Positions 40,701-43,700 of a stretch of DNA of 64,000 bases are shown piece after piece. The stretch is taken from NCBI RefSeq assembly GCF_003019035.1, contig NZ_CP027448.1. The stretch is one strand, 5' to 3'. A program made the position numbers. Within the stretch, counting starts at the first letter, position 1; each line of letters begins with the position of its first letter. This DNA comes from Escherichia coli (GTDB lineage Bacteria; Pseudomonadota; Gammaproteobacteria; Enterobacterales; Enterobacteriaceae).

Positions 40701-43700
40701 AGCACATCAGTGCAGGGATAACCCAGGGCTCTGCTGGTAAACGCCAGGCAGCAGCCGTGGTTAAGATAATGTTCAACGGCAACCTGTTTTTGCTCATCGG
40801 AGTAACGGTGCTTATGACGAATGGATTCTTTTGTGCCACCACCTGCTTCCCATGAGCGGATCCAACGCCGCAGATTTCTTTTCGAAGGGTAGCCCAGTTC
40901 GCGTACGACGGGAGCCAGCTTCTTACCATATTTGAAATAAAGCTCAATGGCGCGGATTTTTTCTTCTTCAGTAAACATGTTTTATCTCCTGAGAGTCCAG
41001 GAAATCGTCCGCAGCCCCGTACACACTGAATAATTATTATCCAGAATGTGAGGGCTTGATACACACCCTCACGACTTTTATGCTTTTCAGATTGTGTTCC
41101 ATCCGTTTTACAGACTCAGAAAATGAACGACAGATTACGCTTTGAAGTGAACGATAACCAGGGGCGTTTCGTATTTCCGGATACCTGGTTTGGCCCATTA
41201 CTGGGAGAGTTTGAAGAACTGCTTGATACATGCGATACTGATGAAATCAGTGAGACGAGTTACATCAACAAACTCAGACGTCTTGCTCAACGGGAGCCTG
41301 ACTTTATTGATATACACGCACATCTGGCATACGCATTTCTGGAACAGGGCACCCCGCGTAAAGCGTTGAACGCCGCTCTTAAAGGGCTGTCAGCTGGTAA
41401 TCGTCTCATCCCTGAAGGTTTCGGTGGCAGAATCATCTGGACACACCCGGACAACCGGCCTTATCTGCGCGTGTTTTATGCAGCAATCCTGGCAAATGTA
41501 CATTTACAACGTCATCAGGATGCCATCATGCTCATTGAGAAAATACTGGCATACAACCTGAAGATAATCAGGGTACTCGCTGGTTGTTGGGTTCAGAACT
41601 GTTACGAACAGGTGATCATGAGCGAGCTTTCCGTGTACTGAATGAGTACGCTGATGAATTTTCACCTTACTGGTATGAACTCGGCCTTCTGCATTTTCTT
41701 AATGGGGAACTGGTAAAAGCTGCAACTGCATTTCGTCGTGGCTTTGCGGCAAATACTTACATCGCAGAAATACTGTGCGAAAATCTGCATCCATTTCCTC
41801 TTGCGATATGGTATGACTTTTCAGGCGGTCCGGATATTGCTGAAGATTATTATGCAACATATCACCCATTATGGAGAGAACATCCGGAAGTATTGCTGTT
41901 TATAAACTGGCTATACAATCATTCCTCTGTACTATGTGAACGGGCAGAAATAATTAAATGCGCAGAAATGATGATGCAGGAAGATGATTTCGAAATATGC
42001 GAAAATATTTTCAAACAACAGGACGAATTACGGAAAAGAATCGATGATAGACTTTCAGAGGAAATTATACAAAAATGCAGGAATATGAAGGGGGAATATG
42101 TCTGGCCCTGGATACTTCCGTTTTCAGTCGGGATAAAGCATACAAATATTCGGTATCAGTAGATATTACGTCAGAGCACTCTACATACAAATAACGCGCA
42201 AGTCTGTCAATAATCCCCCCAGACTGACCGTCTGATGGGGGAGATGGATTAAGTACCAGGGAAAAGATAACAAAGTAAACTACTCCTGATTCTCATTTAA
42301 AAGTTTTCGTAATACTTTATAGCCTGGATTAAACCTCCCCCCCCCCCGATAGCGGTGAATCGCCTCTCCTTTCTATTACAATCAATGATTAGAATTCTTT
42401 ATATAAAACCAGCATAATCTTTATGCGGATTTATTTAATCACGTCTTAACGTAATTTCCGGCCATTCCGGCAGATACACTGGCTATTGACAACACCATAA
42501 TTTTATGTATTTTAGATACAGGATTAAGCATGGACGTAAGTATGTTATGAAAAAGGAATATCTCTACAGTATTTCTGCTGTTATTTTCTGTATCTTACTC
42601 GGATTTGGTCTTATTATTATCAATAATGGAACTCCTTCTCCCCTTTCACCCGGACAGTACCACATTATAACACAATCAACTTATTTAATGATGATGGTGG
42701 CTTTATTTTTTATAGATATCATTGCTTTCCTCTTTATGCAACTTTATTTTATTTATGACCGAAATAACTTTTCGCATTGTATTCTTGGGCTGGCTTTCTT
42801 CAGTTGTATTATATATCTTGTTCTGACAATAATAATTGTTCAACAATACGAAAGTGATACTGTATCTGTAGTAAGCATACATAATTCAATCATGGTCCAT
42901 TATTTCTTCAGACAACTGAGCTTTTGCCTGATTATATATCTGGCATTGTGTGCCAGAAACCGAAGAAAAAACACCGCAATGATTGCCGGTAATAAAACGA
43001 TTTTTTTGATTTGTTTTGCCTGTATGATAATACTACCTGTAATATCATATCTGATTAGCCATCAATACTTCTTCCCGGGTATAACTGAAACTGCTTTATA
43101 CAAATTTGATTTTGTCCATATTGAAACATACATTAAATTTATTGTTTTTTTATGGCTGGGACTGGTTTTTTCGCTTTTTTATACCAGAGCGGTAAACAAT
43201 GATATATGGAAGGGGATATTACTGATTGCCATCTCGGCTGTTTTTTATAATGTTTTCGTTTTGTTTATTGTTGACGGGTATATGCATCTCTGGTATCTCA
43301 GCCGAATGGTAGAAATGTTCAGTAAATTAATTGTTGTTTCTGCTTTTATATATCACATATTTAAAGTTCTGCAATCAACAAAACAATTAAGCAACCTCGA
43401 CCCAATGACAAAAACATATAACAGAAATTTTTTCTTTGAAAAAATAAACGAACTTCTCTCAACAGGAGAAACATATTCGTCCGGTGTCTTTATTATTGAT
43501 ATCGATCACTTTAAATCAGTTAATGATACATGGGGACATCCTGCTGGTGACAGAGTCATTCTGGCTGTTGTCGATATATTAAAACAAGGCATCCGCGCAA
43601 CAGATATTCTGTCACGTCTCGGAGGAGAAGAGTTTGGCATTATTATTAATAATATGAATCCATCAAGAATAAAAATATTAGCGGAAAGACTTCGCAGACA

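What the first reader, a model, noticed from the sequence alone, without database searches (positions are those of the whole stretch)
41123..42162. Frameshift-split helical protein between the IS3 remnant and the GGDEF gene
Two overlapping ORFs read as one ~346-aa helical protein split by a single frameshift near 41590-41640. It is either a recent pseudogene or a sequencing error; it is not a programmed-frameshift context I recognise.
Basis: seen in the sequence. Interest (0 to 1): 0.25.

Follow-up and report, generated by a model that had tools for sequence, protein, structure and literature searches.

The report
Frameshifted TPR pseudogene, real not artefact
A conserved 346-residue helical-repeat (TPR) gene carried on E. 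coli plasmids and genomic islands has lost one base here, and because the same broken allele turns up in many independently sequenced isolates it is an ordinary inherited pseudogene, not a sequencing error or a recoding signal.

Summary
ORFs 41123..41641 and 41584..42162 (+) are two halves of one 346-aa tetratricopeptide-repeat (TPR) gene, which is annotated intact in close relatives (99.5% identical in E. coli plasmid p35A2a). The lesion is the loss of one T between 41556 and 41557 (intact ACAATCCTGAAG, here ACAACCTGAAG).

The exact 172-aa truncated product, with its out-of-frame tail, is on about 50 contigs from independent isolate assemblies, a metagenome and separately assembled read sets. 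All ten loci fetched carry the identical junction. It is a real, inherited, fairly recent allele.

There is no slippery heptamer, stimulatory RNA structure or Shine-Dalgarno for the second half, and no homolog examined shares the split, so programmed frameshifting is rejected. The deletion hits the near-invariant YNPxDNQG loop and removes 23 of 40 invariant residues from the product. The same gene is also cut by an IS3-family insertion in related sheep-farm plasmids.

The intact family is uncharacterised. It usually sits beside integrases in tRNA islands, and its best fold match is eukaryotic Rqc1, which is only a lead. Verdict: ordinary, low interest.

The parts
41123..42162 (+). Whole pseudogene: a 1040-bp remnant of a 1041-bp gene for a 346-aa TPR protein
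   Evidence: 99.5% identical to the intact CDS WP_112026323.1 on plasmid p35A2a and 96% identical to WP_063121769.1 in a selC island. The repaired protein passes the Pfam cut-offs for TPR_16, TPR_14, ANAPC3 and TPR_19.
41556..41557 (+). Site of the 1-bp deletion: a T is lost between these two bases (codons AAT CCT become AAC CTG)
   Evidence: Base-by-base alignment with L001 and L002 and the indel census against L004. The context CAA[T]CC is not a homopolymer.
41123..41641 (+). ORF1: native residues 1-145, then 27 out-of-frame residues (LKIIRVLAGCWVQNCYEQVIMSELSVY), then TGA
   Evidence: This exact 172-aa product is on about 50 contigs in public assemblies.
41584..42162 (+). ORF2: native residues 155-346, listed from a TTG; probably not translated on its own
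   Evidence: No Shine-Dalgarno sequence upstream and no ATG nearby. Carries the lineage-private G220E change at a position conserved in >=90% of the family.
41056..41084 (+). Promoter-like site TTGATA-17-TATGCT, about 40 bp upstream of the start codon
   Evidence: The same site is present in the chromosomal copy L002 at 6040-6068. It is a consensus match only, and site counts are not above the shuffle expectation.
39446..40978 (-). IS3-family transposase region immediately upstream, broken here into four ORFs; homology to the IS-free ancestral arrangement resumes at about 41019
   Evidence: Two extra 1-bp deletions (39735, 40215) and one 1-bp insertion (40643) relative to p35A2a, where the copy is annotated as intact with a programmed frameshift.
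42547..43887 (+). Neighbouring intact MASE4-GGDEF diguanylate cyclase gene (446 aa), with its own promoter-like site at 42486-42513
   Evidence: It is the conserved neighbour of this TPR allele in L001, L002, L003 and L008, but not of the family in general.

Best explanation
This is a genuine, inherited frameshift pseudogene. The ancestral gene encoded a soluble 346-aa TPR (helical-repeat) protein carried on E. coli and E. fergusonii IncF-type plasmids and tRNA-associated genomic islands. In the plasmid lineage this window comes from, one T was lost at codons 145/146. Ribosomes starting at 41123 now read 145 native residues and 27 missense residues, then stop at the TGA at 41639-41641. The product keeps only about 6 of the ~17 helices and lacks 23 of the 40 family-invariant residues, so the protein is most likely non-functional. 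The downstream 192-codon frame is a leftover, not a second gene. Shown: the deletion itself, its inheritance across independent samples, the conservation of the intact family and the absence of recoding signals. Inferred: loss of function, and no effect on the neighbouring cyclase gene, which has its own promoter-like site.
For: The intact 1041-bp homolog is annotated as one CDS in the closest relative (99.5%), and the only length difference is a missing T at 41556/41557. The exact 172-aa product with its out-of-frame tail is on about 50 contigs (55 index blocks). These come from NCBI isolate assemblies (GCA_014331675.1, GCA_005400165.1; proteins GCI78888.1, GCK39460.1), an ENA metagenome, and Logan assemblies of at least seven separate SRA runs. 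All ten fetched loci contain the identical junction, and nine differ at 0-1 of 1040 bp. In the same loci a nearby poly-C tract varies from C11 to C13, so the loci are not copies of one sequence, and the deletion behaves as a stable allele rather than as noise. Variants P0122 (T36A) and P0123 (A69T) share the same tail. Intact alleles are under purifying selection, with dN/dS 0.20-0.35. The window branch carries two private non-synonymous changes and no synonymous ones (Y37C, and G220E at a >=90% conserved site), and these are never seen in 14 intact alleles. The deletion lies in the near-invariant YNPxDNQG loop between helices 131-144 and 153-163 of a confident model with pLDDT 89.8. The same gene is independently cut by an IS3-family insertion at about nucleotide 607 in related plasmids.
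Against: No raw reads were inspected directly. No expression data exist for either ORF. TPR arrays are modular, so a 145-residue N-terminal fragment could retain some binding activity. The conceptual intact ancestor of this haplotype is not on record, so the order of the three private changes is unknown. Four single-base indels cluster within 1.9 kb (39735-41557) relative to p35A2a, which on its own could have suggested local low sequence quality.
Confidence: 0.9

Rival explanations
1. Sequencing or assembly error: the gene is really intact in the source DNA, and the missing T is an artefact of this one record.
For: No record in 20,395 complete E. coli RefSeq records or 72,556 PLSDB plasmids matches the junction at >=99%. 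Single-base indels cluster in 39.7-41.6 kb relative to the closest plasmid.
Against: The identical deletion is found in all ten independently produced loci fetched, and the exact frameshifted product is on about 50 contigs from several projects and assemblers. The site is not a homopolymer. The nearby homopolymer does vary among these loci while the deletion does not.
Confidence: 0.02
2. Programmed recoding: a -1 ribosomal frameshift or transcriptional slippage in the overlap restores a full-length protein.
For: Both frames are open over 41539-41641, so a -1 shift in that stretch would fuse the two ORFs.
Against: No X XXY YYZ heptamer lies in the overlap, and its only run of four or more identical bases is AAAA at 41540-41543, away from the lesion. 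There is no unusually stable downstream structure: z = -1.33, and 22 of 200 shuffles fold as well. There is no Rfam match. Every close homolog examined is a single ORF, and none of about 1,976 E. coli records matches the deletion junction, so the shift is not conserved. A shift anywhere other than the lesion itself would also replace near-invariant residues.
Confidence: 0.02
3. Functional split gene: the N-terminal 172-aa product, and possibly a separately initiated C-terminal product, still work as a two-piece or truncated TPR scaffold.
For: TPR solenoids are modular, and the break falls in an inter-helix loop. Both ORFs remain open in nearly all carriers. The proximal promoter-like site is retained.
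Against: ORF2 has only a TTG start and no Shine-Dalgarno sequence. Nine residues of the most conserved loop are lost and 27 junk residues are added. G220E hits a >=90% conserved residue in ORF2. The openness of both ORFs is explained by the youth of the allele, with 0-1 differences among carriers. The gene is also destroyed by an IS insertion in sister plasmids, so it is dispensable there.
Confidence: 0.06

Closest known systems
Annotated 'tetratricopeptide repeat protein' of Escherichia plasmids and islands (WP_112026323.1 on plasmid p35A2a; WP_063121769.1 in a selC island of strain JNU)
   Same: Collinear over all 346 codons at 99.5% and 96% DNA identity. Same neighbours: MASE4-GGDEF cyclase downstream, and the IS3 copy upstream in p35A2a.
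   Different: The window copy lacks one T at codons 145/146 and carries Y37C and G220E. It is a pseudogene of this family, not an intact member.
IS-disrupted copies of the same gene in UK sheep-farm IncF plasmids (e.g. CP058105.1)
   Same: Same gene (99.6% identical over the 5' 710 bp) in a related context, also inactivated.
   Different: The mechanism differs: an IS3-family element is inserted at about nucleotide 607 rather than one base being deleted. The two events are independent.
Generic TPR scaffolds (Pfam clan of TPR_1/2/14/16/19; structures such as MamA and the OGT TPR domain)
   Different: The family has its own conserved N-terminal beta-hairpin and a C-terminal ~110 residues with no Pfam match. 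It reaches no specific NCBIfam, PADLOC or PHROGs family.
Eukaryotic Rqc1/TCF25 (PF04910; PDB 9ofv chain v)
   Different: All Tcf25 scores are below the gathering cut-off (<=19.2 bits against 24.2). The family profile does not find Rqc1 among PDB sequences. None of the ten longer hits scanned from the exhaustive search is a Tcf25-domain protein. TCF25 is described as a eukaryotic protein with a TPR-like solenoid (bioRxiv 10.64898/2026.04.09.714440), so the likeness may be only solenoid geometry.

Membership tests
TPR repeat proteins (Pfam TPR clan) | At least one TPR-type Pfam model scored above its gathering cut-off | tested here: met
   Repaired protein: TPR_16 34.5 (cut-off 32.7), TPR_14 31.4 (23.5), ANAPC3 30.4 (27.2), TPR_19 30.0 (25). 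As found in the window, ORF1 passes none, and ORF2 passes only TPR_14 at 26.2.
TPR repeat proteins (Pfam TPR clan) | Helix-turn-helix repeat solenoid fold | tested here: met
346-aa island/plasmid TPR protein family (WP_112026323.1-like) | Full-length collinear homology to family members | tested here: met
   E = 5e-223 and 93% identity to the nearest cluster representative; 41-56% identity at 94-100% coverage in other genera; 40 invariant columns.
346-aa island/plasmid TPR protein family (WP_112026323.1-like) | Single uninterrupted reading frame of about 333-347 codons | tested here: not met
   A 1-bp deletion at 41556/41557 splits the frame, so this is a pseudogene of the family.
Programmed -1 ribosomal frameshift sites | Slippery heptamer X XXY YYZ in phase within the overlap | tested here: not met
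   None in 41539-41641.
Programmed -1 ribosomal frameshift sites | Stimulatory downstream RNA structure | tested here: not met
   41545-41665 folds at z = -1.33, and 22 of 200 shuffles fold as well. No Rfam match.
Programmed -1 ribosomal frameshift sites | Two-frame arrangement conserved among homologs | tested here: not met
   Homologs are annotated as single CDSs. No complete E. coli genome or PLSDB plasmid matches the deletion junction at >=99%.
Rqc1/TCF25 (Pfam PF04910) | Score above the Pfam gathering cut-off (24.2 bits) | tested here: not met
   Best scores are 19.2 (P0267), 17.5 (P0112) and 16.6 (P0115). The window protein itself gives no match.
Rqc1/TCF25 (Pfam PF04910) | Global structural similarity to a solved member | tested here: met
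Rqc1/TCF25 (Pfam PF04910) | Association with ribosome quality control partners (Ltn1, Rqc2) | not tested
   The neighbourhoods seen contain integrases and variable cargo, with no RqcH/Rqc2-type genes noticed, but no systematic search was made.
Known anti-phage defence proteins (PADLOC-DB) | Match to any PADLOC model | tested here: not met
   0 families at E <= 1.

The most novel reading that the evidence does not exclude
The frameshift itself is ordinary, but the gene it broke belongs to a large uncharacterised family. The family has 165 50%-identity cluster representatives at E <= 1e-30. About 36% of complete E. coli genomes carry it, in up to 5 copies. It typically sits about 250 bp downstream of P4-type integrases at tRNA islands. 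Its best fold match is eukaryotic Rqc1/TCF25. The most novel reading not excluded is that this family is a bacterial, mobile-element-borne relative of the TCF25/Rqc1 solenoid, or at least an island-maintenance adaptor protein working with the integrase, and that plasmids shed it because it is needed only in the integrative context.
Probability: 0.1. Interest if true: 0.5.

Novelty: already known. Interest (0 to 1): 0.1.

Why it matters
It matters little for biology at large. This is one more decaying gene in an IS-rich region of a ruminant-associated E. coli virulence plasmid. The practical points are about annotation. The two ORFs should be merged and flagged as one frameshifted pseudogene, not called as two hypothetical proteins as some public records do (GCI78888.1, GCK39460.1). 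The lesion can serve as a lineage marker for this plasmid clade. A minor point is that the intact family is widespread, integrase-adjacent and unstudied, and repeated loss on plasmids suggests its role is tied to the island context.

Tried and rejected
Searches of complete E. coli RefSeq genomes and PLSDB plasmids for the exact deletion junction found only alleles with the extra base. I therefore switched to an exact-protein look-up in the 15-billion-protein collection, and that succeeded.

A look-up of four conceptual intact ancestors of this haplotype found none on record, so the order of Y37C, G220E and the deletion cannot be set.

NCBIfam, PADLOC, PHROGs and a PDB sequence search gave no specific family. 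The afdb50 fold library was unavailable.

I tried to lift the Rqc1/TCF25 fold resemblance to sequence-level homology in three ways: a family profile against PDB sequences, a Pfam scan of 34 members, and an exhaustive profile search followed by Pfam scans of ten long hits. Only sub-threshold matches appeared, so it is kept as a lead.

A functional link to the neighbouring cyclase was considered and rejected as a general feature. The family occurs without any GGDEF gene in most contexts examined, and the DgcX literature mentions no TPR partner.

L008, a metagenome contig with the deletion in a chromosome-like context, was examined as possible evidence of an older allele. It is a mosaic that could equally be an assembly chimera, so it is not used as evidence.

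Full report
**1. The observation**

The window contains two + strand ORFs, 41123..41641 (172 aa) and 41584..42162 (192 aa), in different frames. An IS3-family transposase region lies upstream (39446..40978, - strand), and a MASE4-GGDEF gene lies downstream. A megablast of 41000-42300 against complete E. coli genomes finds 1,971 records. The best is plasmid p35A2a of strain VG35A2 at 99.5% identity, where the region is annotated as a single 1041-bp CDS, 'tetratricopeptide repeat protein' WP_112026323.1, 346 aa. A 96% copy (WP_063121769.1) lies in a tRNA-Sec (selC) island of strain JNU. So the observation of one ~346-aa helical protein split in two is confirmed.

**2. The lesion**

Base-by-base alignment shows one length difference. 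The intact genes read ACAATCCTGAAG (Asn-Pro-Glu-Asp), and the window reads ACAACCTGAAG, so a T is missing between 41556 and 41557. The second frame is open from 41539, which puts the deletion inside the stretch where both frames are open. The context CAA[T]CC is not a homopolymer. ORF1 therefore encodes native residues 1-145 plus 27 missense residues, and ORF2 corresponds to native residues 155-346.

**3. Error or real mutation?**

None of the 20,395 RefSeq records or 72,556 PLSDB plasmids matches a 70-base junction probe at 99% identity or better, and the listed hits all span 71 bases. On that evidence alone the allele looks private to this record.

An exact-sequence look-up in the 15-billion-protein collection changes the picture. 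It finds the 172-aa product, including its out-of-frame tail, on about 50 contigs (55 index blocks):
- NCBI proteins GCI78888.1 and GCK39460.1
- assemblies GCA_014331675.1 and GCA_005400165.1
- an ENA metagenome assembly
- Logan assemblies of at least seven separate SRA runs

All ten loci fetched contain the identical junction, and nine differ from the window's gene at 0-1 of 1040 positions. These loci are not copies of one sequence. A poly-C tract 180 bp downstream varies from C11 to C13 among them, one locus has a substitution at 42095, and two variants of the truncated product (T36A, A69T) exist with the same tail. Sequencing error is therefore excluded for practical purposes.

**4. Age and selection**

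The window is collinear with p35A2a over about 42 kb, with 187 substitutions and 17 indels. The gene differs from the p35A2a allele at 5 positions. Polarised with the selC copy, the window branch carries two non-synonymous changes (Y37C, G220E), no synonymous change, and the frameshift.

All 14 intact alleles in the 90% cluster have Y37 and G220. None of the four conceivable intact ancestors of this haplotype is on record. Intact alleles show dN/dS of 0.20-0.35. The allele thus arose after the split from the p35A2a lineage and has spread with little further change, which makes it a fairly recent pseudogene.

Sister plasmids from UK sheep farms carry the same gene cut by an IS3-family insertion at about nucleotide 607. 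A few other truncated versions exist on single contigs. The gene is therefore repeatedly lost in the plasmid context.

**5. Recoding rejected**

Several tests argue against programmed recoding:
- The overlap has no X XXY YYZ heptamer, and its only run of four or more identical bases is AAAA at 41540-41543, away from the lesion.
- There is no Shine-Dalgarno sequence before the TTG at 41584.
- The RNA downstream of the site is not unusually structured: z = -1.33, and 22 of 200 shuffles fold as well.
- A permissive Rfam scan finds nothing relevant.
- No homolog examined shares the two-frame arrangement.

**6. What the intact protein is**

The repaired protein passes the Pfam cut-offs for TPR_16, TPR_14, ANAPC3 and TPR_19. 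It reaches no specific NCBIfam, PADLOC or PHROGs family and has no solved relative by sequence.

Full-length homologs of 333-347 aa, at 41-56% identity, occur in Morganella, Xenorhabdus, Pseudomonas, Massilia, Undibacterium and Vitreoscilla. An exhaustive profile search finds 165 cluster representatives at E <= 1e-30 and 1,570 at E <= 1e-10. An alignment of 34 members has 40 invariant and 51 nearly invariant columns. The deletion falls in the near-invariant YNPxDNQG motif, and 23 of the 40 invariant residues lie beyond it.

The AlphaFold model is confident (pLDDT 89.8, pTM 0.85). It shows an N-terminal beta-hairpin followed by about 17 helices, with the break in the loop between helices 131-144 and 153-163.

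**7. Context of the family**

In E. coli the gene typically lies about 250 bp downstream of a P4-type integrase at tRNA islands: selC, and the mltC-nupG-speC side and the cutA-dsbD side, with variable cargo beyond it. In Pseudomonas and Undibacterium it also sits in integrase-bearing islands. One relative is fused to a PRiA4_ORF3 plasmid-type domain.

The pairing with a MASE4-GGDEF cyclase is specific to the allele group found here (L001, L002, L003, L008). The ancestral arrangement was AraC/HTH, then TPR, then cyclase. In the window and p35A2a lineage an IS3 copy replaced the sequence upstream of about 41019. The cyclase has the same architecture as DgcX, and the literature on DgcX mentions no TPR partner (PMC4287979, PMC10459773). 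The cyclase gene has its own promoter-like site at 42486-42513, so a polar effect of the frameshift is unlikely. This last point is an inference.

**8. A structural lead**

**9. Verdict**

This is an ordinary frameshift pseudogene of an annotated but uncharacterised TPR family. It is real and inherited, and it is neither a sequencing error nor a recoding site. Interest is low. The only mildly interesting residue is the unknown role of the intact, integrase-adjacent family.

Noticed in passing
window 42337-42347: A C11 homopolymer sits in the spacer between the TPR pseudogene and the MASE4-GGDEF gene, about 140 bp upstream of the cyclase's promoter-like site. Its length varies (C11, C12, C13) among otherwise near-identical loci. 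It could be a slipped-strand, possibly phase-variable, tract or simply homopolymer assembly noise.
   Followed up: partly
window 39446-41019: The IS3-family copy upstream is broken into four ORFs. Relative to p35A2a, where it is annotated intact with a programmed frameshift, the window has 1-bp deletions at 39735 and 40215 and a 1-bp insertion at 40643. Together with the TPR deletion, four single-base indels cluster in 1.9 kb, against 17 in about 42 kb overall.
   Followed up: partly
L008 (ENA metagenome ERZ27275494, contig k119_16739): This contig has the same IS3 end and the same deletion, and its first ~600 bp of the gene are identical to the window. The rest of the gene and the cyclase are a third allele, and the contig then continues into a chromosomal selC-island-like context like L002. 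It is either a real recombinant or a chimeric metagenome assembly.
   Followed up: partly
L009 2027-3368 (Logan SRR28282030): In one carrier of the frameshift allele the neighbouring MASE4-GGDEF gene is itself called as two pieces (218 + 201 aa), which may be a further decay event in this module.
   Followed up: no
window 35339-39238 (- strand): A 1299-aa S6-family autotransporter protease (SPATE) lies just beyond the IS3 copy and is shared with p35A2a and many ruminant and porcine E. coli plasmids. From memory, its N-terminal half resembles Tsh/Hbp. This was not tested.
   Followed up: no
window 45232-46802: The IS66-family tnpC downstream of the cyclase is split into two overlapping ORFs (45232..45897 and 45663..46802). 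The corresponding gene in p35A2a is also annotated as frameshifted, so this break predates the split of the two plasmids.
   Followed up: no
protein P0301 (575 aa, from the exhaustive profile search): This protein is a natural fusion of a PRiA4_ORF3 domain (plasmid pRiA4b ORF-3-like, 58.5 bits) with the TPR module of this family (residues 267-563, E = 4e-33). It is another tie between the family and mobile elements.
   Followed up: no
window 42505-42547: The longest ORF for the cyclase starts at ATG 42505 (460 aa), but all public annotations use the start equivalent to 42547 (446 aa). The promoter-like site at 42486-42513 overlaps the upstream ATG, which favours the shorter form.
   Followed up: no
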